DNA of 64,000 nt. Origin: the human T2T-CHM13v2.0 reference genome, Homo sapiens. This document shows, one piece after another, positions 33,328-64,000 of this stretch. How positions within the stretch are numbered: position 1 is the first letter of the stretch; each line of letters begins with the position of its first letter. A program made the position numbers and the translations under genes. The stretch lies in the NCBI RefSeq assembly GCF_009914755.1, contig NC_060926.1; one strand, given 5' to 3'. Under the pieces are notes generated by a model. The model was not told the DNA's origin, did no database searches, and saw only the letters and a list, made by a program, of their open reading frames with translations.

Positions 33328-33736
<409 letters not shown>

Positions 33737-33935: not shown

Positions 33936-34347
<412 letters not shown>

Positions 34348-34519: not shown

Positions 34520-34810
<291 letters not shown>

Positions 34811-36458: not shown

Positions 36459-36794
<336 letters not shown>

Positions 36795-36871
36795 TTGGTT
36801 TTATACATTTTAGGGAGGCACGAGACATCAATCAATATATGTAAGATGAATTTAGTTCAGTCTAGAAAGGC

Positions 36872-39312: not shown

Positions 39313-39835
39313 AGATGCAGGGTGCGGCTCCCCACGACCTGGGATGCAGGGTGCAGGGTGCAGCTCCCCATGACCTGGGACACAGGGTGCAGGATGCAGC
39401 TCCCCATGACCTGGGATGCAGGGTGCAGCTGCCCACGACCTGGGACACAGGGTGCAGGGTGCGGCTCCCCACGACCTGGGATGCAGGGTACAGAGTGCAG
39501 CTGCCCACGACCTGGGACGCAGAGTGCAGGATGCAGCTCCCCATGACCTGGAACGCAGGGTGCAGGGTGCGGCTCCCCACGACCTGGGACGCAGGGTGCA
39601 GGGTGCAGCTCCCTGTGACCTGGGACGCAGGGTGCAGAGTGCAGGGTGCAGCTCCCCGTGACCTGGGATGCAGGGTGCAGGGTGCAGCTCCCCACAACCT
39701 GGGATGCAGGTGCGGCTGCCCATGACCTGGGACACAGGATGCAGGGTGCAGCTCCCCACGACCTGGGATGCAGGTGCGGCTGCCTATGACCTGGGACGCA
39801 GGGTGCAGGGCACGGCTGCCCACGACCTGGGACGC
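39313..39835. repeat. 36-bp minisatellite with 7-bp modular indels, about 15 units
   Basis: gggtgcagggtgcagctccccatgacctgggatgca; periods 28/29, 36 and 43. Confidence 0.95.
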
Positions 39836-40384
39836 GTGGAGTGTCACCAGCCCTTTTGGAGAGTTTCCCGCGTGGAGTGTGGGGCTACAAGGAGCAGTTC
39901 TCCGTCCATTACGGCCTCCCCCAGGCACTCCAGGCCCTGCCGCTCAGGCATCCATGTGGCTTGGACACCGTCAAGGCTACTGGCTTCTCTGATCCAGCTT
40001 CTTCAGGGTCTCCAGACCTCAGTCAGAGCGAGAACTTGGATCCGACTGGATGCCAGATTCAAGTTCTACCCTGCCCTCCGATTCCTGGGCTCTCAAACCC
40101 AGAGACCGTCCCAGCGTCTCTGACCTTCAGTGAGAGTTAGGAGCTCCCGGGTTATTCTATGAAATTGGGAGCTGGTCTGTCCAGCACCTAAAGATCTATC
40201 TGGGAGGGTGGGGCTTCCCTGTCCCACTGGCAGCCTGGTATTCACTGGGTCACAGTCCTGCCTCCATGTGATATCAAGTCCTCCAGGGAGCAAGTGCAGT
40301 AACAACTGTTTAAGTCACAAATCGGACACGGTCTCACTGCAAGCCACAGAATCTTACATCCTGCTGGCATTGCCAGAAGCCAGT

Positions 40385-41216
40385 CACCTGCCCCACTAAT
40401 AATACAACCTGAGAGCACGCTGCAGTGTTCACCAATCAGCTCTAAGCATCACCTGCCCCACTAATAATACAATCTGAGAGCACGCTTCAGTGTTCACCAA
40501 TCAGCTCTAAACATCACCTGCCCCACTAATAATACAATCTGAGAGCACGCTTCAGTGTTCACCAATCAGCTCTAAGCATCGCCTGCCCCACTAATAATAC
40601 AATCTGAGAGCATGCTTCAGTGTTCACCAATCAGCTCTAAGCATCGCCTGCCCCACTAATAATACAACCTGAGAGCACGCTGCAGTGTTCACCAATCAGC
40701 TCTAAGCATCACCTGCCCCACTAATAATACAATCCGAGAGCACACTTCAGTGATCACCAATCAGCTCTAAGCATTGCCTGCCCCACTAATAATACAATCC
40801 GAGAGCACGCTTCACTGTTCACCAATCAGCTCTAAGCATCACCTGCCCCACTAATAATACAATCCGAGAGCACGCTTCACTGTTCACCAATCAGCTCTAA
40901 GCATCACCTGCCCCACTAATAATACAATCTGAGAGCATGCTTCAGTGTTCAGCGATCAGCTCTAAACATCACCTGCCCCACTAATTATACAATCTAAGAG
41001 CACGCTGCAGTGCTCACCAATCAGCTCTAAGCATCACCTGCCCCACTAATAATACAATCTGAGAGCACGCTTCAGTGTTCAGCGATCAGCTCTAAACATC
41101 ACCTGCCCCACTAATTATACAATCTAAGAGCACGCTGCAGTGTTCACCAATCAGCTCTAAGCATCACCTGCCCCACTAATAATACAATCTGAGAGCATGC
41201 TGCATTGCTCATCAAT
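40385..41216. repeat. 65-bp minisatellite, about 12.8 units
   Basis: cacctgccccactaataatacaatctgagagcacgcttcagtgttcaccaatcagctctaagcat; unit starts 40385, 40450 ... 41165. Confidence 0.98.
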
Positions 41217-43444
41217 CCCAGATGCCTCATCCACGCCTTCTGAACATCAAACTGTCAAATCGAAGTAATCAGAAAGAAATTATGATTTAATTGTGATATG
41301 TCTGACTTTTGTGTAAATAATCAACCCACACTTTTCACCCAAATTTTTGGAAGCACGAGGTTGCCAAAAGTCTTCCAAAAATGGAACAAAAGAAATCCCT
41401 GCGGAGGGGCTATCAGCTGTCAAAGACGCAATAACTACACAGAAGAGGACAAAAAAGGGGAAGACATTTCCCTGCACAAGGCAGGGAATGAACACACTCT
41501 GGGTTCTTCATTAAAACTTGGTGCAGAGGAGGGATTCGTACCAAGGTGCCGAAAGCGACGATCTGCAGATATCCTTCCCCTAGCAGCATGCCGGTGACTG
41601 TCTAAAGGGAAGAAGAATCACCATTTAAGAGGAGCCCATTTAGGATCTACGTTTTACCACACTTACGTCAGCACCCTAAGGGCTAAAGAGGAACTCTTAA
41701 GGCACTGGAAAGTTACACAAAGCGAGAGAACGGAAACCAAACGCAGGCAATCCTCAGCGGAGCTCTTCTCCAGCTGGAACAATGAGCTTTGTCCCGAGAA
41801 CAAGGGGGGCACGCCCAGGCCTGGAAGCTGCAGGATGAATGGGACTTCTCAAGTTATCCTCCCACCTCCCCGCCAAGTAAACCCGGGAGCTGGTGTTTGT
41901 TTTGGAGCTGGCCTTGCTGGAGCTGAGATCGTGGGGCTGGGCTGGCTGTCGGCATGTGCCCTGGCGCAGGCCCAGGTCTCATCACGCACCCTCTGTCCCT
42001 GCCATTGTTCTGCAATTAGTTAAGAGGGGGAAACATGCTTCTTACAACCCAGCAGGACGCTTTAGCCGACAAAGCTCCTGGATTTAAAAGAGGTTCGCCC
42101 TTTCATGTTCCAGCAGCTCCTCTTTGGTCTGGGCCTGGAGTTTGCCCCTGAGGCCCCCTGTGGATGGACTGAAGGGCTTTGCTCAATCCCACCCAAACAC
42201 CAAGAACCCAGTCAGCCTCCGCCCTTCGCAGGAAGCCTCTTCCTGACTAGAATGACAAAAGTCATAAGAAGCCCAAGTGATTCTCAATCCTCCTTTACAG
42301 AGGCAGAAACAGAGGCCGGGGAGGTTCCGCCCTGACCCACGATGGCAGAGGAAGGGGAGAGGGGTCCCTGATGCAGTCACGCACCCAGAACCCCCGACTC
42401 GCCCCGCAAGGAAGAAACAGTGAGAGCTCCCTGAGCTGCCCTCACCTCCAGGCCATGGTGTGACGGAACCTCCTCTCCCAGGCATCTGAGTTGCACGGGC
42501 ACTGGGCACGCCCAGTTCATAGAAACGGGGACATCTTTTATGGTATCGATTTGGATCACCTCACTTCCTGTATGAGACACAAATCACCAAGAGCATGTGG
42601 AGTCTGGTGTGCCCGGCTGGGTTTGTTAAGAACCTCTCTACGTGTACAGGTTTTATCAAGTACAGTTTTTTTAAGGAGTCACTGATGATGCAGAATGCTG
42701 GCTCCAAAACACAGTCCTGCAGCGCCCTTGACCATGGTGTTGTCTGATTTCACAGACAGCACGGTGACAGGCATGATCTGCTGAGGCTGCCAGTTCACCG
42801 CGGAAGGGAGCTGGTGGCCGGTCTTCCCCACGGGAGCCAGGCTCCGTCTGGTCCCTGCGCCCTGGCTCTGATCCCACCCGTGGAACTGCAAAGAATATCC
42901 CAGCCCCTGTGCTCGCCGCTCACTCATTGGTACTAGCGACACATCTGCAGTTCATGGGCAATGCTGACCACAGGTGTGGGGACCACGAGCACTGCTGTTC
43001 GGTGAGGAGGAGGCCAGGCACCAGCAGGTGACCACGGCGCTCGCTGCAGTGAAAGGCTCAGGAGGAGGCCCGGGAGTAGCTATGGCTGCAGAGTCAGAGA
43101 GGGCCCCAGAGTGCGGGTGCTTGATCTGACAAGGGCAGGGTGTGTGGTGTTTGCTGAATGGACACTGTGCACGGCCCCACAGAAGACAGGGTGAGGAAAG
43201 GACCTCTAACGGAAGCCACAGCGGGGCTGGGGTGCAGCGGGGCTGGGGTGCAGCAGGGCTGGGGTGCAGCATGCCTAAGGGACAGCCGGAGCCAGCTTGG
43301 AGCTTCCCTTTCTTTATCTCAAACACTCTGAAGGTTCCAAAGTCAGGGCCATTGAACAAGATGCGCTCCTGACTGCGCTCCCACTCCGCACCTGCCCGGC
43401 CCCAGGAGGCCGGCAAGGCGGCTCCCATCGGTCCTCCCGCTGTC

Positions 43445-43768
43445 ACCCCGACGCGGTGGTGTTATCAGGAGGGGAGGCTTTGGAGGCCACGCACTTTAGA
43501 TGAGGTCCTGAGAACAAGCCCCATCATGAGATTCGTGTCCTTCTAGGAAGAGGAAGCAACCCAGAGAGCGTGTTTCTCTTTCTCCACCATGTGAGGACAC
43601 AGAGAGATGCCATCATCTGCAGACCTGCAAGAGGCCCTCACCAGAACCCAACTCTGCTGGCATCTTTGATCTCAGACTTCCAGCCTCCACCACTGTGAGA
43701 AAATAAATCTGTGATTCAAGCTGCCCCATCCATGGTGTTTGTGGGGCTGCCCAGGCTGCCCAATGCAA
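43445..43768 (+). mobile_element. MaLR LTR (MLT1A/B-like)
   Basis: ccatgtgaggacacag...gaggccctcaccagaa...gatctcagacttccagcctcca...tgtgagaaaataaat. Confidence 0.8.
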
Positions 43769-44221
43769 ACAGCACACACTGTCTCCAAGCCCTTCCCGCC
43801 ACCCAGCCCACCAGAGGAGCACACGCAGCTGCGGAGAGGAGAACATCTGGGTTCCTCCAGTTTTGCACTATTATAAATAGCCCTGCAATGACAAGCTTTC
43901 GGTACATCCCATCTGTGATGCGTGTTAATATACTTATGAAACAGGTTCCTAGAAATGGCACTGCTGTGTCAAAGGAGACACACGCCGAAGAACAGCTGCC
44001 GTCTGCTGCTCACTTGGTAGGTGTGGGCCACGTCTATAAATACAGGTGTTGCCCAAGCCTGAAGGTCAGGAACTTGCTCAAGTCTGACCGTAGCACATGG
44101 ATCTACAAACACCCAGACCCAGGCCGCTGGGGGCTCAGCGTTTCTGGGGGACAGCTGGAGACAGCAGCACACGGTGGTGGTATTAGGAGGTGTGAAGCCT
44201 TTGGAGGTGACACATGTTAGA

Positions 44222-45357
44222 TGAGCACCCGTTCCACCAGCATCCACTTTCCACCAGCACCCACTCTCCACTAGCACCCACTCTCCACCAGGACCCACTC
44301 TACGAACACCCACCCCACCAGCACCCACTCTCCACCAGCACCCTCTCCACTAGCACCCTCTCCACCAGCACCCACTCTCCACCAGCACCCACTCTATGAA
44401 CACCCACTCTCCACCAGCACCCGCTCTACCAGCACCCACTCTATGAACACCCACTCTCCACCAGCACCCACTCCACCAGCACCCTCTCCACCAGCACCCA
44501 CTCCACCAGCACCCACTCCACCAGCACCCACTCTCCACCAGCACCCACTCCACCAGCACCCACTCCACCAGCACCCACTCTCCACCAGCACCTGCTCCAC
44601 CAGCACCCACTCTCCACCAGCACCCACTCCACCAGCACCCACTCTATGAACACCCGCTCCACCAGTACCCACTCTCCACCAGCACCCGCTCTCCACCAGC
44701 ACCCGCTCCACCAGTACCCACTCTCCACCAGCACCCGCTCCACCAGCATCCACTCTACCAGCACCCGCTCCACAAGCACCCACTCTCCACCAGCACCCAC
44801 TCTCCACTAGCACCCACTCCACCAGCACCCACTCTCCACCAGCACCCACTCTCCACCAGCACCCGCTCCACCAGCACCCACTCTCCACCAGCACCCGCTC
44901 CACCAGCACCCGCTCCACCAGCACCCACTCTCCACCAGCACCCACTCCACCAGCATCCGCTCTACCAGCACCCGCTCCACCAGCACCCACTCTCCACCAG
45001 CACCCACTCTCCACCAGCACCCGCTCCACCAGCACCCTCTCCACCAGCACCCGCTCCACCAGCATCCACTCTACCAGCACCCGCTCCACAAGCACCCACT
45101 CTCCACCAGCACCCACTCTCCACTAGCACCCACTCCACCAGCACCCACTCTCCACCAGCACCTGCTCCACCAGCACCCGCTCCACCAGCACCCACTCTCC
45201 ACCAGCACCCACTCCACCAGCATCCACTCCACCAGCACCCACTCTCCACCAGCATCCACTCTCCACCAGCACCCACTCTCCACCAGCACCCACTCTCCAC
45301 CAGCACCCGCTCCACCAGCACCCACTCCACCAGCACCCACTCTCCACCAGCACCTGC
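44222..45357. repeat. 15/17-bp C-rich minisatellite
   Basis: ccaccagcaccc(a/g)ct(ct) repeated over about 1.1 kb. Confidence 0.97.
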
Positions 45358-46354
45358 CGAACCACTAGGCTGAATAAAAGGAGGGCCACCTGCAGGATCC
45401 ACTGGGGGAAGGCAAGTGCTGGTGGAGGCTCTCTGGTGGTGATGACGCCCCTAAACAGCCAGCTCCCACTGCATTTGGGAGCCACGAACCAAATCCTCAC
45501 TCAGGTCTGTGGAGATCTCAGCTCCCTATAAATAGGGGCCTGGACTTGTAACTGCTCTCTCAGGAGGCAGGAGGCTGACCCAGGAGGTCCTCCTCATCCA
45601 AAGCTCTGCTTCACTCAACCAGCGGCTCCCATCTCAGCTTCCCAAGACAAGATGTCAGGTTAACACAACTCTCAAGTAATCATCCAGTAAATTATTTTAA
45701 AATTCTTGTCAATGAAAATGTTGAGGAATATATATTGATCAAGATCAACGAGGGTAAAAAAAAGCCATTTTTTCTCTCCAATTAATATAGACTCAGAAAA
45801 GAAGGAACTGAGATAATACTAAAAGCATAGGACAGAAAGCTATTTACAAAGAAGACTGGGAAGTAAATCAAAGTACTGACAAATTGAAAGGAAGAACTAC
45901 ATTATAATTTTTATTACGATTTTAGGTTTCTGAGTTTAATCAGCAAATGTAAAAATGCAGTCATAATATTTAAATATTAGGCTTCTCTGGGATTTAATGA
46001 CAATATCATTTTCTTCTTAAGGTGATGTTTCACTTTTTTGTAATGCATCATGTCTTAAAATAATCATAACAGTAAACCTTGTTTTACTGGGTTCAACTTT
46101 TTATAATCAGCCTATAGAGAGACTGTGGAAGACAACTGTTTGGAGGGTCAAGTTGAAATGTCAGGAGCCTGGTTCATGTCAGATCACATAACCAACAAAA
46201 TTCCAAACAGGCAGAAAGGGGAGAAGAGTGGAAATCTAAATTTGCTAAATTCCTCTTCTTCCCAGCAGCGAATCCCCAGGGACGGCCTGAAGTAGAGGAG
46301 GTCACACATGGCGGCCTTGTGGTGGAAAAGCGGCCAGCAGCAGAACTAAAATGA

Positions 46355-46729
<375 letters not shown>

Positions 46730-49523
46730 TAAAAAGAATACTCCTTTAATTAAAAGTAAATGAATGAGTCACACAGGTGGCCCCTGGTTCCTAGACCTGG
46801 TGATCTTGGGGCCCGAGTCCCCAAGCCGCTGCACAAGGCCCCTGCCACCCTCCCACCTCTCTCGCGTCACAAGCAGGGCCCTCAGGATTCAGACACGCTC
46901 CCCAGAGCCTTGCAGAGCGAGATCTAAAGCAACTCTAATTTTCTGCACCAACGATCAATTACCGCAGAAGAAAGAAGGCTGAGCCTCTCCCTGCTACAGT
47001 TTTGTGCTGTGGTAACTCAGCCTGGCCTCCGGGCTTCCATCCCTGCGAAAAGAAGCAGGTGGATCTGACAGGAGGCACCCAGGAAATCTGCGGCTCAGAG
47101 GTCTTCCTGCCTCCAGTCCAAAGCAAAATCCCCACCTGGAAAACCCATTCCAGACTCCTGCGGGTGACTGCAGGCTGGGGAGGAGTAGAAGGGGCACCTG
47201 CCTCTGACAGGAGAGCCCTGGGGGCCGCCTCTCCCCACTGGCCGCTCCAGCACCAGAGGCTGTCTCCCTCATAGCCCAGGGTGGCCGCATAGGGGCTGTA
47301 CCTCCAAATGGACCCCGGGTGGGCGGGAGCCTCGGTCCCCCCGAATGCTCGTGTGCTCCTGGTCCTTGCAGCCACTGCAGTGCCTCCGGAGCATGGGGGC
47401 ACAGACTGAGGGGCGCACCTGAGGCCCCGGGCCCCTGAGAGGTAAGAGGTGGGCAGCCAGGCAACCCAATGCAGCCTGCTGCAGAGCACTGCATCTCCCC
47501 GTAAGTGTCCTGGGGTGTTCACTGACCCCATTTTTTTGGTATTGCTTAAAAAGAGACATGAGAAGAGAACTTAAGAGTGCCTCAGCAGGCAGGAAGGAGC
47601 TCCCAGAGCCAGGAAGGCACAGGCTCCCAGGCTCTCCTGTGCGGGCCAGGCACGTGGGTCTCAAGGGACAGTGAAGTTTCATGTCACCCTGAAACATGGC
47701 CCAGCCTGGGCAACCTACGATAATATTGGCACTGGCGGCTTTGGAAATGGCCTTCGGATAAACAGCTTCAAGAAAGCGCATCCGTCACCTTTGGTGACTT
47801 CCCCGCCACAACACCCATCCACATCCAGGATACTGTTTTTTTCAACTACCTCATTTATTGCTCTTACATCTGCACTTGATTACTATGGATTTACACGTCA
47901 CACCCGCAGCACCCTTGCGTAGGTAGTTGAGGGGTCAACCCCAGCCCAGGTCAAGCCCTCCAAAACCCCAGGAGCCACTCTTGGGAAGGTTCCCCTGTCC
48001 CCCGATGGTCCGGCACCCTGGCCCACTCGCTCCCATGCCTTTGAGAGGAGATCAGGTCTTGCCTCTGCCAAGAAGATGGGGCTACTGTGGGAGCAGGGAC
48101 CCTGCCAGTTACACTTCCTAGAACTTCCAACCCCTTCCTCATCACCACCAATCCTCGCCCAGCAATGACCGCGGGTCCACGCTCAGGGAAATGCCCCTCC
48201 CACAGCAGGCCCAGTGCGTGCATTCCCTGAAAGGCCAGGTGGGGACATCTTTGCTTGAGGTGCAGATCCTGGCCTTGCAGCTCCTGAATTCTGTCTCTGC
48301 AGCAGGAATGCGGCCACAGAAGAGGCGACCCGGTGGCTGTGGCCAAGCTCCGATAAGCTTTTATTTATGGTGCTGAAATTCCAATTTCATAAAATGTCCA
48401 CAGCATGAAATATTTACTCTTCTTTTGATTTTTTTCAGACATTTAGAAATGCAAAGTGCATAGCTCTTGGGCCGGACAAACCAGGCCTGGGTCAGATGGG
48501 GCCCCTGGCCAAGGGCACAGGAAGTAGGGGGTCCCTCTCCAGGCTCTGGGAGCCTGGCCTGGCGCCCTGTCTTGCTCACCCTGTCCCAGATTAACCTATG
48601 TCTAGCATTTATCTTTTGGGAGCATCAGGTTTTAGGCGACATATGAACACGCCACCCATTAATACAAAGCCCCCTCCCCCCATCCCCGGCTTACAAATAA
48701 ACAATACAAATCTGTTTGTTCATGCATATACAGTTTACTCTTTGGGAAAAATAATCCAAAACTTCTTCCATGGGTGTTAAAAAATAAAATCAGTATTTTT
48801 CCTGCCTTCCAGTCAGAAAAACTTGGCCAGTTTTGCGTTCCTGAAAACTTCTTCCAAGGCCATTTCATTCTGCCCCAGAAAGACCCTGCTCCGGGGTTAA
48901 GGGCAAGGACAGTGGGGTCATGAGAGGGGAAAGAGCCGACGGTCATCTGCTAAAGAACCAGGCACGTGAAACAACTGCAGGAACTCCACATTTCCCGCTA
49001 AGTATGTCCGGGAAAATACTGCAGGCCGTCATCTGTCTAATTAGAAACAGCCACAAAAACAGCGACGGAGCGGGAGCCAATTCCCAGCAGAATCATGCAA
49101 ATGAAATCCCAGATGAAGAGAAGGGGGAACTCAACTCAGCTTCTGCTGAGAAACTGTAAACGCCTTCCTGTTATGAAAACAGGACACAGGTGCAAATAAG
49201 GGGCTGTATCTTCTAACTCAAGGAACACGCCACGGTGCCGGGCGGGTGTCGTCCCCAGCATCCCAGAAGCACCACAGCAAGTCAGCCACAGGTTGGCTGG
49301 CTCTCTGGTGGAGCCTGGTCTCCAGCCCTGGCTTGCAGCAGCCGAACAAGCTGCAGATGGAAACAGCCAGGGAAATGCAGAGTGGACCACTTTCCAGGCT
49401 CTGAGCACAGAGACCAGAGCGGCAGGTAACTCATGGAAAGGCCTCACCTCCCTGCCCAGCCCAACCTCTGCAGGATGAATATCTTCCATACTCAGGGTTA
49501 AGGTACTTGCCCGGGAAAACCAA

Positions 49524-49652
49524 AATGTGTGCGTATGACACAGACATAGTTTTTTCCAGCAAACAATACAGCCCTCACCCAGCTGCCCAATGTGTGCGTA
49601 TGACACAGACATAGTTTTTTCCAGGCAAACAATATAGCCCTCACCCAGCTGC
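49524..49652. repeat. 65-bp tandem duplication, near-perfect
   Basis: aatgtgtgcgtatgacacagacatagttttttccag...ccctcacccagctgc at 49524 and 49589. Confidence 0.9.
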
Positions 49653-49816
49653 TCCAAGCAAGTGTTGGTCTTTTCTAATTTGACGGCAGGTGGTGGAGTG
49701 TTGGCCAAAGACAAGGCAACAGGCAGGCCTGGGGTAGAGTCCACCTGTGCCACCTGACTGGCTGTGGCTTCCTGGACAGATGCCTGGGCCTCTCTGAGCC
49801 TCAGTGTACGTATCTA

Positions 49817-50278
<462 letters not shown>

Positions 50279-51371
50279 CTACCTGGGGCAAGGGGTTGGC
50301 ATGGAGGCCCAGTGTGCAGCATCCTCCTCGGAAAGAGACGGGCACCTGCAATCACGTGGTGGGGCCCACAGTGAGGTCCTGTCTGGGGCCTTATGCCCTG
50401 GTGGTACCTCTCACGCCCTCCCAGCCCCTTCTCCATCAGTACAGGGGTAACCGCTCCAGACACACCTGTTTGACCCCAAGGACAAACATGAGGGGCTGGA
50501 AAATGATGAAAGGAAGCCCAGTTCCACTCCTTCATTTCACACCACATGGACAGGTTCAGATAAGTGGGTCCCTGTGCCTAAAGTCACACAGCCCAACAGG
50601 GGCAGAAAAAGAAGGCGTCACTAGCCTTGCCCCCATCCAGCCCCATGTCCCCAAAACCCTGCTCTCTGACCCACTCTCAACAGCCCCTTGGTAAGCACGA
50701 TCTCTGCTGCGCTCAACACTCCCCATTTTTAACTTGGCTAAGGTCTGTATACTGATGGGAAGACAAATCTGATGTAACACAGCCATCGATCTTAAAATGC
50801 TAAGGCCTCCCCAAATCTGACGTCTAGAAACGCTGGCCATGAGAAAGCTCCCTCACTATCCTCTTGGCTGAGGCCACTCCTGAGAAAAAAAGCCTGCTTG
50901 GCTGGTGAATTCTTGGCCTTCCCCTAACAATAGATTAATGCCTAAACTGGCTGGTGGAAAGTCTGACGGGAACAGAGATTCCGCTGCTGTCTGTCCACTA
51001 TTCAAGGCCTCTTTGTTCTCGGTTCTGCGGATCAGTCCAAATGCCTCTCGCCCGGGGCTATCTGATTCAACTGGGCTCAGCAGCTTTTCCTGACTGGTAA
51101 CCACACAACCAGGAAACAATGGGTCCACACACAAACGGAAAAGACTTCACACACCCCTGAATCTTTGTAAACTCCTATTGACAAAAGAAAAACTTGCAAC
51201 AATAGACTCACCTAATTTACCTAATAGATGAAAAGAATCAGGTCACCAAATTGTTGATGCGGGAAACTTATTTATAGAAGGTCTTCTAATAAATGCAGAC
51301 AGAATCACAAAATAGCTGATCCTGAGCCTGGAACCACATGGACTACTCTACTGACCTGCAGCACAGACATC

Positions 51372-52324
51372 CTCTACTAACCTACCCTACTAACCTACTC
51401 CACTAACCGACCACCCAAAGCTACTCTACTAACCAACTACCCAAACCTGCTCTACTAACCTACTCTGCTAAGCGACCACCCAAAGCTATTCTGCTAACCA
51501 ACTACCCAAACCTGCTCTACCCACTAACCGACCACCCAAGGCTATTCTACTAACCACCTACCCAAACCTGCCCTACCCACTAACCGACCACCCAAAGCTA
51601 TTCTACTAACCAACTACCCAAACCTGCTCTACCCACTAACCGACCACCCAAAGCTATTCGACTAACCAACTACCCAAACCTGCCCTACCCACTAACCGAC
51701 CACCCAAAGCTATTCTACTAACCAACTACCCAAACCTGCTCTACTAACCTACTCCACTAACCGACCACCCAAAGCTACTCTACTAACCAACTACCCAACC
51801 ACTCTACTAACCTACTCTGCTAACCGACCACCCAAAGCTACTCTACTAACCTACTACGCAAACCTACTCTACTCACCTATTCCACTAACCTACCACCCAA
51901 AACTACTCTACTAACCTACTACGCAAACCTACTCTACTCACCTATTCCACTAACCTACCACCCAACTCTACTAACCTACTCCACTAACCTAAAACTCAAA
52001 CCTACTCCACTAATCTACCACCCAAAGCTACTCTATTAACCTACTCTACTAACTTACCACCCAAACCTACTCTATTAACGTATGTCACTAACCTACCACC
52101 TAAACTTACTCTACTAACCTACTCTAACTTACCACCCAAACCTACTCTTTTAACCTACTCCACTAACCTACCACTCAAACCTACTCCATTAACCTACTAC
52201 CCGAAGCTACTCTACTAACTTACTCCACTGACCTACCACCCAAACCTACTTTATTAACCTATGCCACTAACTTACCACCCTAACCTACTCTTTTAACCTA
52301 CTCCACTAACCTACCACCCAAACC
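51372..52324. repeat. C/A-rich minisatellite built from 13-14-bp subunits (56-65-bp higher-order period)
   Basis: ctactctactaac / gaccacccaaag / ctacccaaac modules. Confidence 0.95.
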
Positions 52325-53452
52325 TGCCACAGGGCAGCACACACGGGGTGACACAGAGCAGCAAACACGGGGTGACGCGGGCAGGGCGTGTGTGGTCCCT
52401 TTACGGCTGCTGGATCTCCAGGCCTTTCTAGGCATCCTTTCTCTGGTGATGTCCAGTCCTCTGGTTGAGCCTGGTCTCCAGCTCTGGCCTGCCACAGCCA
52501 AACAGGCTGAGGAAGAAATGGCCAGGGCAGGGCAAGGCAGAGCGGGCAGCTCCCAGCACCTGCCACCAGCAACTTGCCACAACTCCAGCCCAAAGAGGGG
52601 TTCTTATGGCCGTGGAGGAAGCCCAGCCCCGAAGACCATACCTCGCAGATGGCATGTGAGGGGCACACCCAGGACACGCTGACAGCCACGCAAGGTCCCT
52701 GCAAAGGCAAACACCGGGCACAGCAGCCGAGCTGAGACGCCAGGGGCCAGGGGCTGGCTGCACTGGCGCAGTCATGGCTCCTTAGACGAGCGAGCCAGCC
52801 TGGGGCCCTGCGGCCATGCCTCCCACCTGAGTTACTCGGAAGGGGGCTTGCTCCACACCTTCTCACACCACCTGCTCCCCGTGTGGGAACAGAGCCAGGG
52901 GAGGCAGCCACCCACCTTCACCCCTCAGCCACAGCCTGGCAATCCCCTAAGAGGACACCCCATGGAGAAAGGCCCTCCCCAGGCAGCAGCCGGCAGCACC
53001 CAACCCAGCCAGGCTCTGTCCCAGGCCCTCCTGGGTCTGTGCCCCTGCTCAGGGTCCTCTCCCCAGCACGAATCCTTACATAAACCACACAAAGCCTGTG
53101 TGCCTTGAGGGTACATGGAACCTAAGAGGGGACACTGGCCTTGCAGGAGGCATCGAACTCCTCGCCGGTCCCCGCCGACCTGCCTGCTTGGCTCCCTAGC
53201 ACCCCTGTGCCTCTAACAGCGGCCTCCAGGGCCTCTCTGGATTCTCACCACAGTCCTCCAGTTTCAGCCCCCACGGCCAGCTGTTAATCCCTGAACATTT
53301 TCAAGTTCAAGTTCTCAGGAGACAGCACTGGCTGGGCTAAGCCTGACCATCAGTGACTAGCACATGGACCACTGTCCTGGGTCAGGCGCCCACCCGGTTC
53401 CAACCAGCTGCGGTCCAGGAGGACCAGGTCATGTGACACACATCGTGAACAC

Positions 53453-53510
53453 TGGATTGGTCAGGGTTCTCCAGAGAAATGGAGACCACAGGATGTGTGT
53501 ACATGCGTGC

Positions 53511-53555
<45 letters not shown>

Positions 53556-54497
53556 GAGAGAGGGAGGGAGATTCAGAGAGAGAGGGAGGGAGGGATGCAG
53601 AGAGGGAGAGAGAGAGAGGGAGGGATGCAGAGAGAGGGAGATGCACAGAGAGAGGGAGGGATGCAGAGAGAGAGGGAGGGGAGGGATGTAGAGAGAGAGA
53701 GAGAGAGGGAGGGATGCAGAGAGAGAGAGAGGGAGGGAGGGATGCAGAGAGAGAGGGAGGGAGGGATGCAGAGAGAGAGGGAGGGAAGAATGCAGAGAGA
53801 GAGAGAGGGAGGGAGGGATGCAGAGAGAGAGAGATGCACAGAGAGAGGGAGGGATGCAGAGAGAGGGAGGGATGCAGAGAGAGAGAGAGGGAGGGAGGGA
53901 TGCAGAGAGAGAGAGAGAGAGGGAGGGATGCAGAGAGAGAGAGAGGGAGGGAGGGATGCAGAGAGAGAGAGATGCACAGAGAGAGGGAGGGATGCAGAGA
54001 GAGAGAGAGGGAGGGAGGGATGCAGAGAGAGAGAGAGAGAGGGAGGGATGCAGAGAGAGAGAGAGGGAGGGAGGGATGCAGAGAGAGAGAGATGCACAGA
54101 GAGAGGGAGGGATGCAGAGAGAGGGAGGGATGCAGAGAGAGAGGGAGGGGAGGGATGCAGAGAGAGAGATGCACAGAGAGAGGGAGGGATGCAGAGAGAG
54201 AGGTGGGGTTGAAGGTGAGAAGAGAGGCAGAAGGGAGGTGTATTTTAAGGAGCTGGCTGAGATGGTGGTGGCTTGGCAAGTCCAGAGTCTGCAGGGAGTG
54301 CCTCGCTCCACGCCTTCTCACACCACCTGCTCCAGACCAGAGCCTGGGGAGGCAGCCGACCACCTTTGCCTCTCAGATACAGCTCTCTCTGCATCTCTTT
54401 CTCTCTCTCTGCATCTCTTTCTCTCTCTCTGCATCTCTTTCTCTCTCTCTGCATCTCTTTCTCTCTGCATCTCTTTCTCTCTCTCTCTGCATCTCTT

Positions 54498-54533
<36 letters not shown>

Positions 54534-54979
54534 ACGTACACATATCCTGTGGTTTCCATTTCTCTGGAGAACCCTGACCAACCCAGTGTTCGCAATGTGT
54601 GTCACATGACCTGGTCCTCCCGGACCGCAGCTGGTTGGACCTGGGTGGGCGCCTGACCCAGGACAGCAGTCCTCATGCTGGCCGCTTACTGATGCTACAG
54701 CCCCGGGGAAGCATGGTAGCTGCAGCTCCAGTCCAAAAGCCGCCTCTGCTGGTGGAATTCCCTCCTGCTCCGGGGAGGTCAGCCTTTATTCCGTTAAGGC
54801 CTTCAACTAACTGGACGAGGTCCACCCACACCACAGAGGACAGTCGGCTCTACTCAAAGTCTCCAGATTTAAATGTTACTGTCCTCTAAAAACCCCTTCA
54901 CAGAAACATCCAGAATAATGTCTCAGCACATATCTGGGTGCAGTGGCCCAGCCAAGTCGACATAAAATTCAGCATCACA
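53453..54979 (-). mobile_element. MLT2-type (ERVL) solo LTR with expanded internal simple repeat and a templated insertion
   Basis: tggattggtcagggttctccagagaaa...tattttaaggagctggct...aaggccttcaact...ggcccagccaagtcgacataaaattcagcatcaca. Confidence 0.85.
53512..54202. repeat. (TG)n followed by ~650-bp polypurine (GA)n/GGGAGGGATGCA repeat
   Basis: Direct inspection. Confidence 0.97.
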
Positions 54980-55336
54980 GGCAGGCAGGCAGCGTGGCTG
55001 AGGATGGGGCTCCTTCACTTAGAAGGTGCAAATGTGGCAGGCAGCTGAGATGAAGCCAACTTAGAAGTGTCAGAATTCAAACAACTGAACGGGAATAGTT
55101 TCAACAACGGTACGGGTTAATTGAGGTGGTTCCTGTTCAGAAAGACCCAGTGTGCTCTTTGAGTTGAGCAAAACAAATGGATGAATCATGTTAATCCCAC
55201 TGGGCATTCATCCAGGATTCAGCCAACCAGCAGGCAGGAAGCCCCTCTTCACAAACCAAGCCCAGGAAGTAACTGACTCCAGGCTCTAGTGAAACAGATT
55301 GAGTTTTGCTTGTTGCTTTTCTAAAAGCCTCAAATT

Positions 55337-55620
55337 GGCCGGGTGCGGTGGCTCACGCCTGTAATCCCAGCACTTTGGGAGGCCGAGGCAGGCGGATCAC
55401 GAGGTCAGGAGATCAAGACCATACTGGCTAACACAGTGAAACCCCGTCTCTACTAAAAATTAGCCGGGCTTGGTGGCGAGCGCCTGTAGTCCCAGCTACT
55501 TGGGAGACTGAGGCAGGAGAATGGCGTGAACCCAGGAGGTGGAGCTTGCAGTGCCACTGCACTCCAGCCTGGGAGACAGAGAGAGACTCCGTCTCAAAAT
55601 AAATAAATAAATAAATAAAT
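55337..55620 (+). mobile_element. Alu (AluY-like) with two small internal deletions
   Basis: gatcacgaggtcaggagatc, tggcgtgaaccc, ggagcttgcagtg diagnostics; TSD aaaagcctcaaat. Confidence 0.92.
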
Positions 55621-56696
55621 AAAAGCCTCAAATCAGGCTGTGCTTTAATGACCTCCACTGAGGAAATGAATCATAAAATGGAATCAAGAAATATTTATAC
55701 CAAATAGTTACTAAGAGACTCAAAGGGGATCTAACCTAGGGGAATTCCCACATACACATCACTTGTTAGGAAGGCGAGAAAGGCAAGCCAAGCTGATGAG
55801 TGAATGAGGAAACGCTTTTTAAAGTGCTAAATAAGACAGTTTTATAAATGAGAAAATACCACAAGACAGAGTTAAGCGAGAAATAATGAACCCGAGAGGT
55901 GTTGACAATGGATGGGCTGAAGATGAACTATCAGGAAGTTTCTGAGCGAGCGGACACAAAATAGAACATGTAAGAAGAATAAAATTAAGCCAAAGCAGTC
56001 CCTCTTGAAAGCTCTCCACGTGGACGTCTTCACTTTACCTCAGGTTATTCCGGTCAGCAGCCAGCATGGCCGTTCCCTCACCCCAGGACTGTGATGCTGA
56101 CGCAGTCTCCTCTCTCGGCACTGAGTCCTCAGAGTCCTGGTGGCTTGGCAGTCCCTCTCCCATGAGAAATTGAGAACAGGAGAATCTCAACGCAGAATCC
56201 ATTGCGTGCAATGCATGGGTTATCCCAGCATCCAGATTCTAGCTGGCTGTGATCCTCAGAAGAACTGGGAACATATTCACCCAAATCACTTTCTTTGGAG
56301 CTTTATTTTCTCAATAACCAGTTGAAAAAGACTGCTAGACACAGAACTCTGAGGAACTTCCCAGCAAAGGAGGCTTCTCTAACCTCCCCTCAAAAAATAT
56401 AAGAAAGTTGTATTTTAAAATCAGTGCATTCTGAACTTAGGAGAAAAGAGGTGTGCGTCTACAGGTGGGGCTCCTTCCACAGCTATCTCCTTCTCTATAA
56501 CCCTCTAGCTAGGCTTCCAACACTATTCTTAAAATATGGGAGGGGGGTACGAGGAAGCAGGGACAGGGCTGTGGCTCCAGGGGCACAGTGTTGCAGGGCA
56601 CGGTGTGCCTCACAGCCTGACCCCTTCTGGACCACAAGCACCTGACAGCCTGCTGCTGTCACCACTGTGGGACACTTCACAGTGATTCCAGTAGTG

Positions 56697-57540
56697 AGGG
56701 ATGGATGGATGGGTGAATGGGTGGGTAGCTAGATGGAGAGATGTATGTGTGGATGGATGGATGCACGCATCATGGATGGATAGATAGGTGGGTGATTATG
56801 GATGAATGGACAGATGGATGGACTAATGAATGGACAGATGAATGAATGGATTAATGGATGGATGGATGAATAGATGGATGAGTGGTTATGGATGAATGGA
56901 CAGATGGACTAATGAATGGATACATTGATGGATGGCTGACTGGAAAATGGATGAGTAGTTATGGATGAATGGACAGATGGATGAATGAATTAATGAATGG
57001 AAGAAAGAATAGATGGATGAGTGGTTATGAATCAATGAACAGATAGATGGACTAATGAATGGAAAGGTGAATGAATGAATGCATTAATGGATGGATAGCT
57101 GGAGGGATGGATGATGAATAAATGGATGTGTGGTTATGGATGAATGGAAAGATGGATAAACTAATGAATGAATAGATGAATGAATGTATTAATGGGTGGG
57201 TGGATGACTGGATAAATAGATGGATGAGTGGTTATGGATGAATGGACAGATGGATGAACTAATAAATGGGCAGATGGATGAATGAGTAAATTAATGGATA
57301 GATAGAAGAATAGATGGTTGAGTTGTTATGGATGAATGGACAGATGGATGGACTAATGAACGGATGGATGGATGGATTAATGGATGGATAAATGGATAGG
57401 TGGTTATGGATGGACAGACAGATGGACTAATAAATGAATAGATGGATGAATGAATGGATTAATGGATGGATGGATGGATGGATGGATGAATGGATGGATG
57501 AAAGGGGGGTTATGGATGGATGGGTAAACGTGAATGGATA
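56697..57540. repeat. Degenerate (TGGA)n/(TGAA)n simple repeat
   Basis: Direct inspection. Confidence 0.95.
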
Positions 57541-58114
57541 GGGTGACATGGGCACTGATCCAGGAAAATTATACAATGAAAAAAACATGCACAAGAAAAC
57601 AAATGTTCAAGACTAACATCAGCCGCCTGTTGCCATGCCAATACAAACATCCCACGTTTGAGTAAGTTACAATCATGAGTAACTGTATCTGCTTTAATTG
57701 ATATTTTAAAAGTTAAAAGTGTTGCTCTGCTGGTTATAGATTTTTAGAAATATTTGCTTCATGCCAGGATGCAACAAGTTTCATCTTATTCCCAAAAGGA
57801 AGCTTGGCTATGACTAGGAAAAGGAGCATAAATTTAATGACAAGGACTTCAGATAAACTGCAGCCTTTGTTTTCCACTGCTGAAACACAGACACTGTCGC
57901 ATTTTGTCTCCAAAGCCATGTTTCTTTCCCACAACAATTCTCAATGAAGAAATCTTCCTGCCTGAAAGTTGTTATAGTCTTATTTTTGTCCCCACAGAAA
58001 AATATTAATCTAAGAGTTTCAATCCGTGCTAAGTCAAAATTTTTCCATCTCTACCAACATCAGCCTTATATTTTATTTAAAGTAAGTCTGAATTTCCGTT
58101 TTTTTTTTTTTTTT

Positions 58115-58394
58115 GGTCAGAAAGCAATATTTAATAGAGACTTACACAGAAAATATCCTTTTTATAGTAGGTTCTTTTGACAAAACATGTAGAGTTGGTC
58201 ACATCTCAGACTTTCTTGTGAAACTTGTGACCACTGAGGAGGTTAGATAAGCATCTTTATGAGTGTTTATCTATGCTGCAGTTTAAAGATCTTGCTGCAG
58301 AACACCTTGGTATGGAGGAGTCAAACATTGATCATCATGGTGGTTTTGCTTCAAGACGGCACCACTCTGCCATTCAACAGACTGCTCTCCTACA
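58115..58394 (-). mobile_element. LTR fragment (LTR47-like, tentative) truncated at its poly(A) site
   Basis: Starts TGTAGG on minus; TATAAAAA near 58159-58166, then ATTAAA 15 nt before the poly(A) tail. Confidence 0.55.
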
Positions 58395-59069
58395 AAGAGA
58401 CGACCCTTTCCTCATTGTGTATTCTTGGCACCCTTGTTGAAAGTTAGTTGATCATCTATGCCTGAGTTCATTTCTGGGCTCTGTATTCTGTTTGTTTGGC
58501 CAATTTGTCTGTTTTTATTCCAGTACTATAATGTTTTAATTATTATAACTTTGTAATATAATTTGAAATCAGGAAGTGTAATGCCTCATATTTTGTTCTC
58601 CTTTCTTAAGATTGCTTTGGCTGTTTGGAGTCATTTGTGGTTCCATGCAAATTTTATAGGATTGCTTTAATTCTGTTTCTGTGAAGAATGCTACTGGAAT
58701 TGTAACAAGAATTGCATTGAATGTAAAGATCACTTTGGGTTGTGTAGATAGTTAAACAATATTAAGTCTTCTAATCCATGAGCACAAGATAATGCTCCAT
58801 CCATTTGTTTCTTCAGTCTTTTCCCATCAATGTTTTATAGTTTTTAGCATTCAGTTATTGCATCTCCTTGGTTAATTTATTCCTAATTATTTTATTCTTT
58901 TTGATGCTATCATAACAGATTGTTTTCTTGATTCCCTTTTTGGATAATTTGCTGTTGGTTTAAAGAAATGCTACTGACTTTTGTATGTTGATTTTGTATC
59001 CTGCAACTTTACTAAATTTATTAGTTCTAATAGTTTTTAATGGAATCTTTAGGATTTTCTATATATAGG
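58395..59069 (-). mobile_element. Old L1M ORF2 fragment (transduced)
   Basis: Reverse complement reads tatatagaaaatcctaaagattcc...aaagttgcaggatacaaaatcaacatacaaaagtcagtagc. Confidence 0.85.
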
Positions 59070-59074
59070 AATGA

Positions 59075-60384
<1,310 letters not shown>

Positions 60385-60619
60385 AAAAATGTCTATTCAA
60401 GTCCTTTGCCCATTTCAGCAAGCTTGTTTGTTTTTTGTTTGTTTTACTGAGCTGTATGAGTTCCTTACATGTTTTAGATGCTAACCCCTTATCAGATAAA
60501 TAGTTTGCAAATATTTATCTCCCAACCTATAGGGTGCCTTTTCATCTTGTTGATTATTTCCTTGGCTGTACAGAGCTTTTACTTTAATGTAGTCCTACTT
60601 GTTTATTTATTTTTGCTTT
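60385..60619 (-). mobile_element. Old L1M ORF2 fragment (transduced, in the inverted segment)
   Basis: aaatgtctattcaagtcctttgcccattt...cccttatcagata...tttgcaaatattt. Confidence 0.85.
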
Positions 60620-61719
60620 TGAATTTCCGTTTTTATTGTCCGTAATTCTTAGCAAAGACTTAACATAGATCTATGTGAGTATGACACTTTAGAAATCGAG
60701 AATTGCTTTTTAAAAAATAAAGACAGGGCTTTGGGAAGGGAAGGGCACACTCACGGATCATGTCCTGGACCCCCGGAAGGCAGAAAGTGTTGTCTCAAAA
60801 GGGAAAATCAGATGTTTCTTAAACACATAGGTCTGGTCGGTTAGACAAAATTGCCATTCTCAAATGCAGTGAACACTCTGCTTCCTTGTAATTTCCTGTT
60901 TGCATCCAAGTATCTGCTTCAACTAAAGTCAGCATATCAAGTAACCGCTGACGCTGACCAAGCCCTGCGAGCACACACAGCCCACCCTCCACCCGGAGAA
61001 CCGCCACCGCCCCGTCACAGCCATCCCAAGTCCCTCCTGCTCCCTCCTCCTGAGCCTTGGACCAGCGGCTGCCCCTCCTTCAGACAAAGTTCTTTGGCCT
61101 CATATTTCAGTTTATCGCACTTAAATGTGCAGGATTCCATGCAAGCCGTAACGTAATAAGTAGCATCCATTGCAAGAGCAGCTACTGTGCTTGGCTGTGC
61201 GCTAGGAGGTTTGCACGCACAGCCTTCCTCACTCCTCAGGACCCCTACAGATGGGGAAGCCGAGGCTTCAAGGGGTGCGGTCACGTCCTCAAGGGAGCAC
61301 ATCCGGAAAGCACAGACCAGGACCCCAGCTCAAGGCTGGCACATGCCCTGCACCTGCTGCCAGCTCCACCACGCAGGTGCATTTTTCCTCAGCCCTCAGT
61401 TAGGCAGCCTTCCCATCCCCCTCAAGAACAGTCTCCACCGTGTCACACCACAGGTCAGTGGAGTCCAACCCCCTGCCCACCAGACCCCCTGTGAGTCAAT
61501 CGCCGAGAGCCAGCTGAGTTCATCTCCATCCCCAGCACCTGCCAGCAGGGCCTCCACGTGGCGTGTTCTTTCTGACTTCCTAATAGTATAATTAAATATA
61601 ACAACTTTAGAGTTGATCTAGTCTGAAAGGCAAGATATTTTCTCCCCTAAATAAGATTGGTTAAGGACTGCTAAACTGTTCACTGTCTTGTGCTATTCTG
61701 CACAAGACTGTCCTGTTCC

Positions 61720-62024
61720 TTCTTTTGTTCTCTCTTCTTTGAGACAGGGTCTGGCTCTATTGCCCAGGCTTGAGTGCAGTGATGCAATCACAGCTCACTG
61801 CAGCCTTAACCTCCGAGGCTCAAGCAATCCTCCTGCCTCAGCCTCCAAGTGAGTAGCCAGGACTACAGGCGTATACCACCATGTGCAGCTAATTTTTGTA
61901 TTTTTTGTAGAGACGGGTCTCGCCATTTTGCCCAGGCTGGTCTCTAAATCCCGAGCTCAAGAGATCCATCCGCCTCAGCCTCCCAAAGTGCTGGGATTAC
62001 AAGCGTGAGCCACTGCACCCAGCC
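61720..62024 (-). mobile_element. Alu (AluJ-like)
   Basis: gagacagggtct...cacagctcactgcagcc; TSD actgtcctgttc. Confidence 0.92.
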
Positions 62025-62177
62025 AACTGTCCTGTTCTCAACAACTAATGTAAACCCTGCAGCACAGATTCCGAGGCCGGTTTCGCTTGAGGCGGTCACA
62101 CGGCAAGGGCACCTGCTGGCAGGGTCCCTGGGCCCTCAGCACAGAGCCTCTCTCTAGGAGCTACCAGCCGGAGAATA

Positions 62178-62745
62178 CAGTCCCTCCGCATTATTTGCAG
62201 ATTCCAAATTTGTGACTTCACCTCGAAAATCAGTACTTGGAGCACCTCCGCCATTATCTGCGGACAGGCGCAGAATGGGGAAAAATCGGAGTCACCTGAT
62301 ACCCAGGTCCACAGCTGAGCTGGTAAAGCTGACAACGGCCCTCTTGTTTCCACTCTCCTGCCGTAAACAGGGTCTTTTTCAAGGTCTATTTAGGGCCACG
62401 CATTTCACACTTTTTGTGCTTTTGTTGGTGATTTTGCTATTTAAAACGGCCCCAAAGCACAGTGTTGCCGTTCTGGCTGTGCTGCCCTCACGAGGAACAG
62501 GTGTGGTGGAGAAGCTCCACTCAGGAATGGGGGACAGTGTTCCCGGCCACAGCTCGTTAACAATGTCAGTGAATCAACAATGTACAGAAACAAAGTGTCC
62601 TTCAACAGGAATGCACGCGAAACAGGAGGATTTGAAAAAACTTTTGTGGCCACAGATATAGCCCTGCGAGTCCTCTAGAAGCGAGACAGGCCGAGCCCTC
62701 TTTTATTCAGCATTCTGGGGCTCTGCAGAACAGGACCACCATGGC
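62178..62745 (+). mobile_element. MER82-like TcMar-Tigger element
   Basis: cattatttgcagattcc...ggtctatttagggccacg...tttgtgcttttgttggtgattttgctatttaaaacggcccc. Confidence 0.7.
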
Positions 62746-63344
62746 TAACCAGGCTCCGCCCCGGGGAACAGCAGGCAGGGCGCTGGGCTGGCTGCTCTGT
62801 GAGCTCCTCCCAGTGCGGGCCCGGTGTGACTATGGGTCTGGTAAGAACAGCTGACTGTGAGGCAGAGACCAAACAAGACACAGACAAGCCACACGGTGCG
62901 AACTGTCAGAACCTGGGATAAAGACAGAGCTGGCAAATAAACATACATGACAGGCACAAACGCTAGATGGTTTGGCTCTCAGGGCATACCGAAAATCAAA
63001 CCATTTGCAGAAAAAACAAATTGTAAGAATCAAAATGCAGTCACTCAGCAAAGAAACATGAGCACTTACACAGGCTGTATTTCCACCATCCCGGGGTCAG
63101 AGACGGTGCCTTCAGCCCCTGACCCTCCCTTCAGCCCTCCCTCCTGACCCATTACAGGCTCCCCAACGAAGGTGCATTCTATATTAGTCCTGTAGTAAGT
63201 CAGTCACCACTGCTCAGCTACAGAGAACATCCATCCGCAGGATAATATGAACAGGGGCCAGGAAGAAAACACAACAGGGAAAGCCCACCGTAGGCCAACC
63301 ACCATCCCTGGTGCAGATCAAAACCTCCCAGAATGTTCCTACAG

Positions 63345-63511
63345 CAGGGTGGGGGAGGGGGGTGAGGGATAAAAGTCTACACGTTGGATACAGTGTACAC
63401 CACTCGGGTGATGGGTGCACCCAAATCTCAGAATTCACCACTAAAGAACTTATTCATGTAACCAAACACCACCTGTTCCCCAAAAATCTACTGAAATTTT
63501 TTTTAAAAAAA
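63345..63511 (+). mobile_element. Old primate L1 3' end fragment (L1PA15/16 or L1PB-like)
   Basis: cactcgggtgatgggtgcacccaaatctcagaattcaccactaaagaacttattcatgtaaccaaacaccacctgttcccc. Confidence 0.85.
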
Positions 63512-64000
63512 GATTTCTCTAGAAATGTGCCGTAAAAACAATCTAGACAGACACACACAAAAATGCATGCAATCACATTTTGGAAATATTGTTTGCAGGA
63601 GCAGAAAAGTAGAAACAAAGAAATGACCCATAATAAAAATTCTGTTAGGCAGATTTGGTCATTTCAAACAAATACTGTGTGGTCATTAACAATGATGATG
63701 GAGGCCTCTAATTATTGAACAGACACACAATCATAATATATTCCCAGATTTTAAAACCATACAAAGTGCATTATAGAGCAGAACATGTATCATGACCCAA
63801 TTTTTGAAAATAGATACATGACAGATAAATATTAACAGGTAGACAAATACTGCTACGTACTACACACGCCTGAATGCTTCTGTGTGTGTGCATCTGAGAA
63901 CAAAGCCCAGCTAATGTTTCTCCTGAATGACAGCAATGTGAGTAATTTGTTTCATTTTGTTCCTGTTTATTTTTAAATTTTTCTAACATGAACATGTGTA

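What the first reader, a model, noticed from the sequence alone, without database searches (positions are those of the whole stretch)
51409..51834. Natural 8x GLI-site array inside an intron-1 minisatellite
Seen: eight exact GACCACCCA 9-mers on the same strand, starting at 51409, 51474, 51530, 51586, 51642, 51698, 51763 and 51826 (spacing 56-65 bp). Several TACCACCCA near-matches follow up to about 52320. Each G is part of a CpG. Established: GACCACCCA is the optimal GLI1-3 (Hedgehog effector) site, and multimerised GLI sites are the design of standard Hedgehog reporters; ZIC and GLIS factors bind related sequences. Inference: a single T>G change in a TACCACCCA subunit was amplified in the younger, homogeneous 56-bp block. 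This makes a candidate copy-number-variable, possibly methylation-gated, Hedgehog-responsive enhancer for PXDN.
Basis: partly seen in the sequence, partly recalled or inferred. Interest (0 to 1): 0.75.

Follow-up and report, generated by a model that had tools for sequence, protein, structure and literature searches.

The report
Minisatellite that copied one GLI motif
Eight perfect matches to the binding word of the Hedgehog-pathway GLI proteins do sit in a repeat inside the human peroxidasin gene, but they are likely copies of one chance base change spread by repeat expansion, the genome holds several equal or larger arrays, and nothing found shows that this one controls the gene.

Summary
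The eight GACCACCCA sites are real, at the stated places. They are one subunit variant of a single-copy, roughly 1-kb subtelomeric minisatellite (51343-52325; 13-bp subunits in 56/65-bp higher-order units). Non-motif changes were amplified with the G in the same block, so the eight sites count as one event, not eight. Such arrays are not special. Fifteen loci genome-wide have three or more spaced exact sites, and nine others have 8-30. GLI triples (52) are fewer than for 6 of 7 same-composition control 9-mers. Against: poor 3' flank, no cofactor consensus in the array, and GLI's measured methylation sensitivity lies at other positions. Published GLI clusters validate about 23% of the time and can repress. 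The PXDN expression-linked VNTR rows seen concern another repeat. Occupancy, polymorphism and conservation could not be tested. Verdict: likely a neutral motif-bearing minisatellite; real Hedgehog enhancer about 10%.

The parts
51343..52325 (+). Single-copy C/A-rich minisatellite: 13-bp subunits of two types (A ends CTACT/CCACT, B ends CCCA), higher-order periods 26, 39, 56, 65
   Evidence: TRF rows 51343-52325; subunit parse; only one genomic match, the locus itself
51405..51886 (+). Younger-looking block of eight higher-order units (65,56,56,56,56,65,63,65 bp), each starting with the G-variant B subunit
   Evidence: mean pairwise identity 0.92; block-specific non-motif variants CCAACTACCC 6 of 6 and AACCTGC 6 of 6 inside the block
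51470..51693 (+). Four 56-bp units (likely a 9-bp deletion derivative of the 65-bp unit)
51409..51417 (+). GLI consensus 9-mer 1
51474..51482 (+). GLI consensus 9-mer 2
51530..51538 (+). GLI consensus 9-mer 3 (only one with AG 3' flank)
51586..51594 (+). GLI consensus 9-mer 4
51642..51650 (+). GLI consensus 9-mer 5
51698..51706 (+). GLI consensus 9-mer 6
51763..51771 (+). GLI consensus 9-mer 7
51826..51834 (+). GLI consensus 9-mer 8
51887..52325 (+). Older-looking, more diverged block with seven TACCACCCA near-matches
   Evidence: mean identity 0.86 over the six complete T units
27037..64000 (-). The array is about 24 kb from the exon at 26965-27036 and about 26 kb from the gene's 5' end at 78655
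   Evidence: hub annotation supplied with the finding; not checked outside the window

Best explanation
This is a subtelomeric minisatellite in which one base change likely created a GLI consensus word by chance and tandem duplication likely copied it eight times, and it probably has no measurable role in PXDN control. Shown: the repeat anatomy, the block structure, the co-amplified non-motif variants and the genome-wide census. Inferred: T-to-G polarity; expansion by unequal exchange or slippage; absence of selection and of function. The DNA would probably bind GLI when naked or on a plasmid with GLI1 overexpressed; that alone would not make it an enhancer in the chromosome.
For: All 8 sites occupy the same position of the same subunit. 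Two variants unrelated to the motif are confined to the same block, 6 of 6 each. GLI triples spaced 30-60 bp give 52 matches at 11 loci, against 174, 2, 75, 144, 150, 64 and 68 for seven same-composition 9-mers. Pairs give 94 vs 306 reversed; short-gap triples give 38 vs 148. Eight of 11 other fetched arrays hold 8-30 exact sites, and a C23/C24 array holds more than 8. 13 of 15 loci lie within 5 Mb of a contig end, where VNTRs are enriched 7.1-fold (PMC7608644). 184 9-mers in this window reach the same copy number. The 3' flank matches the extended GLI1 optimum at 1-2 of 7 bases, and 0 of 8 sites have the helpful C at position 14. There is no SOX, FOX, E-box, TCF, AP1, TEAD or ETS consensus inside the array (patterns recalled). 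About 86-91% of motif-bearing GLI ChIP peaks have one site, and AC/ACC/C-rich k-mers carry negative weight (PMC4765071). Cluster-based prediction validated 4 of 17 in fly sequence (PMC4692483). Three optimal sites out of context do not activate in the fly wing (PMC4887206). A consensus site at TGM3 is neither bound nor needed (PMC2830928).
Against: The exact 12-mers CGACCACCCAAA and CGACCACCCAAG are 'medium confidence' in vivo GLI motifs, while no CTACCACCCA 12-mer is listed. All 8 CpGs are intact. With 5 singleton changes in 283 other bases, a rough model expects 1.4-4.2 losses if they were methylated in the germ line (P of none 0.24-0.01). This may point to low methylation, though homogenisation also explains it, and 2 of the 5 singletons look like subunit conversions. 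It is the only one of 12 arrays compared whose sites sit in a 5' CpG. Lack of enrichment genome-wide does not exclude co-option at one locus: intronic VNTR enhancers exist (CDH2, SIRT3). The cluster study excluded repeats, so its 23% does not cover this case. The left flank has SOX/TCF/FOX-like words. No chromatin or binding data were seen.
Confidence: 0.72

Rival explanations
1. The array is bound by GLI, ZIC or GLIS proteins in some cells and acts as a repressor-favouring element or a passive binding sink, not as an activator.
For: Eight in vivo-type motifs. Multiple high-affinity sites favour cooperative GLI repressors (PMC3472688; PMC4887206). Intact CpGs.
Against: No occupancy data. The cooperative examples are mostly fly enhancers, or closely spaced pairs next to other activator sites. 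The spacing here is 56-65 bp, with no cofactor consensus inside. ZIC/GLIS recognition of related words is recalled, not tested.
Confidence: 0.14
2. One reading: a Hedgehog-responsive intronic enhancer of PXDN whose strength depends on repeat number and CpG methylation.
For: Exact consensus x8. Multimerised consensus sites are the usual GLI reporter design (PMC2830928). Two-site optimisation raised Gli1 response in mammalian cells (PMC4887206). Precedent in the CDH2 intron-1 VNTR.
Against: No enrichment of such arrays. The PXDN eVNTR rows seen (2 of 3) name hg38 chr2:1,751,727-1,751,786, upstream of the gene and about 33 kb from this array by my offset estimate. The known methyl-sensitive GLI1 positions have no CpG here. 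No PXDN-Hedgehog link in the 13 listed papers (listing only; one checked by passage). Polymorphism not shown.
Confidence: 0.1
3. Any effect comes from the G-rich transcribed strand (G-quadruplex, R-loop or RNA-binding sites in the pre-mRNA) and not from GLI.
For: Strong strand skew (GC skew -0.81 in 51501-52000); PXDN's sense strand is the G-rich one; G4Hunter minimum -1.52.
Against: Only 35 of 959 windows pass 1.2, and there is no canonical four-G3-tract motif with loops of 1-7.
Confidence: 0.04

Closest known systems
Human subtelomeric minisatellites / VNTRs (Linthorst 2020, PMC7608644; Lu 2021, PMC8275641)
   Same: Tandem units over 10 bp, about 1 kb long, single locus, within 5 Mb of a chromosome end, interspersed unit variants in blocks.
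   Different: Length variation between people is not shown; GC is about 46%, below the >60% class most enriched in subtelomeres.
Motif-carrying intronic VNTR enhancers: CDH2 intron 1 (PMC12064536), SIRT3 intron 5 (as reviewed in PMC12776774)
   Same: A transcription-factor word multiplied by tandem expansion in an intron; in SIRT3 a single base inside the unit switches the motif.
   Different: Those have binding and reporter evidence, and CDH2 interleaves several factors' sites; here there is only a motif match for one family.
Synthetic multimerised GLI reporters
   Same: Several same-strand consensus sites in a row.
   Different: Reporters sit on a minimal promoter in plasmid DNA; this is about 26 kb from the promoter in a C-rich repeat. 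Lorberbaum 2016 (PMC4887206) states that no generic multimer response element had been found in nature.
Natural GLI enhancers (ptc/PTCH1, Foxa2, FST, TGM3)
   Same: Contain the consensus or near-consensus 9-mer.
   Different: Usually one or a few sites, often sub-optimal, with cofactor sites; PTCH1 carries the conserved extended 3' consensus that this array lacks.
Other exact-GLI minisatellites found here (L009-L019; C23/C24 about 0.2 Mb)
   Same: 4-30 exact sites in tandem repeats, mostly near chromosome ends.
   Different: Unrelated unit sequences; none of the 11 fetched has the 5' CpG; several have better 3' flanks or more sites.

Membership tests
Minisatellite | Head-to-tail units of about 10-60 bp | tested here: met
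   13-bp subunits, 56/65-bp higher-order units
Minisatellite | Locus-specific rather than dispersed family | tested here: met
   One match for the 1101-bp query and 8 of 8 matches of a 17-mer at this locus; the DNA search warns that it skips simple repeats
VNTR | Copy number differs between haplotypes | tested here: inconclusive
   The Lu 2021 table read jumps from chr2:1.266 Mb to 4.963 Mb; no second human assembly available
GLI-responsive enhancer | GLI motif with the critical C at positions 4 and 6 | tested here: met
   8 exact consensus sites; positions 4 and 6 critical
GLI-responsive enhancer | 12-mer seen in in vivo GLI ChIP motif library | tested here: met
   CGACCACCCAAA and CGACCACCCAAG medium confidence
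GLI-responsive enhancer | High-affinity 3' extension or C at position 14 (helpful, not required) | tested here: not met
   1-2 of 7 bases; 0 of 8 with C14
GLI-responsive enhancer | Cofactor sites (SOX, FOX, E-box, TCF) near the GLI sites | tested here: inconclusive
   None inside the 983-bp array; several short consensus words in the 500-bp flanks, no chance control run
GLI-responsive enhancer | GLI occupancy in cells | not testable with these tools
   No ChIP/CUT&RUN tracks available
GLI-responsive enhancer | Open chromatin or enhancer marks | tested here: inconclusive
   Search of the hESC H3K4me1 peak file of PMC6084406 did not reach chr2 rows; 9 RefSeq elements of the window are not listed in the hub table
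GLI-responsive enhancer | Site-dependent response to Hedgehog in a reporter, and effect on the target gene | not testable with these tools
   Needs experiment; literature search gave no PXDN-Hedgehog paper by listing
GLI-responsive enhancer | Conservation of sites across mammals | not testable with these tools
   No relatives of this genome are held
Expression-linked VNTR (eVNTR) | Repeat length or motif dose associated with expression | tested here: inconclusive
   9 repeats tested for PXDN; the 2 of 3 rows seen name another repeat; whether this array was among the 9 is unknown
Methylation-gated GLI site | CpG at a position where methylation alters GLI binding | tested here: inconclusive
   Measured effect is at positions 10-14, where the array has no CpG; the -1/+1 CpG is not covered in the passages read

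The most novel reading that the evidence does not exclude
A recent minisatellite expansion built a natural multimerised Hedgehog response element in PXDN: an unmethylated 8x GLI array whose copy number tunes peroxidasin (basement-membrane cross-linking) expression. It would be the first of about 15 unstudied GLI-motif minisatellites in the human genome to act as a signalling-responsive, polymorphic enhancer or silencer.
Probability: 0.08. Interest if true: 0.7.

Novelty: new member of a known kind. Interest (0 to 1): 0.2.

Why it matters
As it stands it is an ordinary case of a repeat multiplying a motif. It shows why motif clusters in minisatellites need a repeat-aware null. The one reusable product is a short list of about 15 human minisatellites with repeated exact GLI sites, a class that a published cluster screen deliberately left out and that can be tested together against GLI binding data. 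If this array proved functional, it would be a natural counterpart of the synthetic GLI reporter and would link Hedgehog to PXDN through a possibly variable element.

Tried and rejected
Shuffle significance: rejected as the test, since repeats violate it; replaced by the within-window 9-mer count and genome-wide permuted motifs. One control (75 matches) shares 8 bases with the GLI word and is not independent; without it GLI is still below 5 of 6. Counts are overlapping matches, not loci, and vary widely (2-174), so they show no enrichment but do not show depletion. Dispersed family or paralog: none. Telomere-derived repeat: one CCCTAA only, rejected. Helical phasing of sites: spacings are 5.3-6.2 turns, not constant, rejected. 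Selection from CpG retention: borderline and model-dependent, not accepted. hESC enhancer overlap: searches of PMC6084406 supplements gave no PXDN text and did not reach chr2 rows; its main enhancer table mmc3 was too large to read. VNTR length variation: region missing from the table read; the full locus list (MOESM5) was too large to read and may bear on it. Papers sought but not held: methyl-SELEX survey, two VNTR papers, two GLI enhancer papers, the ZEB1 tandem-repeat paper. Earlier scan findings were not available.

Full report
Observation. The eight exact GACCACCCA 9-mers are at the stated coordinates, all on +, and are the only ones in the window. Seven TACCACCCA follow at 51891-52312. 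Each G follows a C. Shuffles never reach eight (0 of 100), but the sites lie in a tandem repeat, so this null overstates the case. In this window 184 different 9-mers reach eight copies within 500 bp, 0.14% of 9-mer space on both strands. A toy calculation gives about even odds that a list of 500 motif words would hit one of them.

Anatomy. The repeat spans 51343-52325 and parses into 13-bp subunits of two types. The GLI word is bases 5-13 of a type-B subunit. T is base 5 in 48 of 62 parsed subunits, G in 8 and A in 6. The G occurs only in 51405-51886, in eight units of 65, 56, 56, 56, 56, 65, 63 and 65 bp. Their mean identity is 0.92, against 0.86 among the six complete T units. The last G unit is 97% identical to the first T unit. 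Two variants that have nothing to do with the motif are confined to the same block, 6 of 6 each. I infer one T-to-G change carried along by block expansion, with the 56-bp unit arising later by a 9-bp loss. The array has no paralog. By the hub annotation it lies about 24 kb from the nearest exon and 26 kb from the 5' end of PXDN.

Is it special? Three exact sites spaced 30-60 bp give 52 matches at 11 loci. Shorter spacing adds four loci, counting C23 and C24 as one. Of 11 other arrays fetched, eight have 8-30 sites and six have eight or more in 500 bp. The C23 array has 13 by my reading of the rows. Seven same-composition 9-mers give 174, 2, 75, 144, 150, 64 and 68 matches; one of them overlaps the GLI word and is not independent. 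Pairs give 94 vs 306, and short triples 38 vs 148. These are overlapping matches and scatter widely, so they show no enrichment, nothing more. Thirteen of the 15 loci lie within 5 Mb of a contig end (lengths; lengths of C2 and C22 recalled), which is the distribution of VNTRs (PMC7608644, passages).

Quality of the sites. In favour: both 12-mers present are 'medium confidence' entries in a library built from four mouse GLI ChIP sets, and no CTACCACCCA 12-mer is listed (PMC4765071 supplement 1, rows seen). Against: the 3' flank matches the extended GLI1 optimum at 1-2 of 7 bases and no site has C at position 14 (PMC5694663 and PMC2830928, passages). No recalled SOX, FOX, E-box, TCF, AP1, TEAD or ETS consensus lies in the array, though several lie in the flanks (no chance control).

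What clusters of GLI sites do. About 86-91% of motif-bearing GLI peaks have one site, and AC, ACC and C-rich k-mers weigh against enhancer calls (PMC4765071, passages). Density-based prediction validated 4 of 17 fly regions, and repeats were excluded as out of scope (PMC4692483, passages). Three optimal sites alone do not activate in the fly wing, optimal sites can repress, and the authors knew of no natural generic multimer element; optimising two sites did raise the Gli1 response in mammalian cells (PMC4887206, passages; PMC3472688, passages). At human TGM3 a consensus site is unbound and dispensable (PMC2830928, section 6). A plasmid reporter with excess GLI1 would therefore probably respond and would prove little.

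Methylation. GLI1's measured sensitivity is at two CpGs in positions 10-14. The array has none there; its CpG straddles -1/+1, which the passages I read do not cover. It is the only one of 12 arrays with that CpG. All eight are intact. A rough model with 5 singleton changes in 283 bases expects 1.4-4.2 losses if methylated, P of none 0.24-0.01. Two of the five look like conversions from neighbouring subunits, which weakens this. It remains the one loose end and may mean low germ-line methylation or recent homogenisation.

Link to PXDN. A search for PXDN with Hedgehog and GLI1 listed 13 papers, each with 1-2 mentions of PXDN and none on the link by title or abstract start (listing; one checked by passage). 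PXDN with VNTR listed 3, PXDN with tandem repeats and long-read 2, and VNTR, enhancer, binding and GLI 5; none is on this element by listing. These searches cover an open-access library only. In Lu 2021 (PMC8275641, supplement rows) nine repeats were tested for PXDN. The 2 of 3 rows seen name hg38 chr2:1,751,727-1,751,786. Gene-end offsets put this array near hg38 1,717,500-1,718,800 (my estimate), so it is another repeat. The length table has no rows for chr2:1.27-4.96 Mb, so polymorphism is open. Enhancer marks could not be checked, and nine RefSeq elements of the window are not listed in the hub table; one could overlap.

Comparison. It is a minisatellite by tested features; 'VNTR' is unproven. 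It looks like the motif-bearing intronic repeats of CDH2 (PMC12064536, abstract and passages) and SIRT3 (review PMC12776774, passages), but those have binding or reporter data. It meets the sequence criteria for GLI sites, and none of the functional criteria for an enhancer could be tested.

Verdict. Neutral hitchhiking 0.72; bound repressor element or sink 0.14; Hedgehog enhancer 0.10; strand-structure effect 0.04. Interest 0.2. The same intron holds a repeat with 79 CAGGTG E-boxes. This shows how common such arrays are here, and it may be the better lead.

Noticed in passing
window 36867-38644: 21-bp minisatellite (about 84 copies, 89% matches) with 79 CAGGTG E-boxes on one strand. CAGGTG is the ZEB1 word; tandem repeats with clustered ZEB1 motifs are a published class (cited in PMC12064536). 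Its end overlaps the RefSeq enhancer at 38493-39096. That SNAI1 binds this word and regulates PXDN is recalled, not checked. A stronger motif-repeat candidate than the GLI array.
   Followed up: partly
window 40384-41217: 65-bp repeat, 12.8 copies, with 10 CACCTG E-boxes (opposite strand to the 21-bp array).
   Followed up: no
window 29166-29950: 44-bp repeat with a near-perfect 295-bp higher-order duplication (99%), overlapping the RefSeq enhancer 28817-29557; no CpG in 785 bp.
   Followed up: no
window 44224-45354: 15/16-bp C-rich repeat with 3 GAACACCCA, the 3A GLI variant listed as functional at HNF3beta and FST.
   Followed up: no
L009 (G000:C5:1993500-1997000): 63-bp repeat with 13 exact GLI sites, all followed by the same CAATGAT flank.
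   Followed up: partly
L011 (G000:C8:425800-429300); G000:C23:200027-200479 and C24:206042-206754: Largest exact-GLI arrays seen: 30 sites on C8; about 13 on C23 and 20 on C24 in the same 37-bp repeat. This is a copy-number difference between the two contigs of one assembly.
   Followed up: partly
outside window, hg38 chr2:1,751,727-1,751,786: Published PXDN expression-linked repeat upstream of the gene (adipose p about 1e-13, skin p about 2e-6).
   Followed up: no
window 17302-17447: Perfect 73-bp tandem duplication just before the exon at 17560-17631.
   Followed up: no
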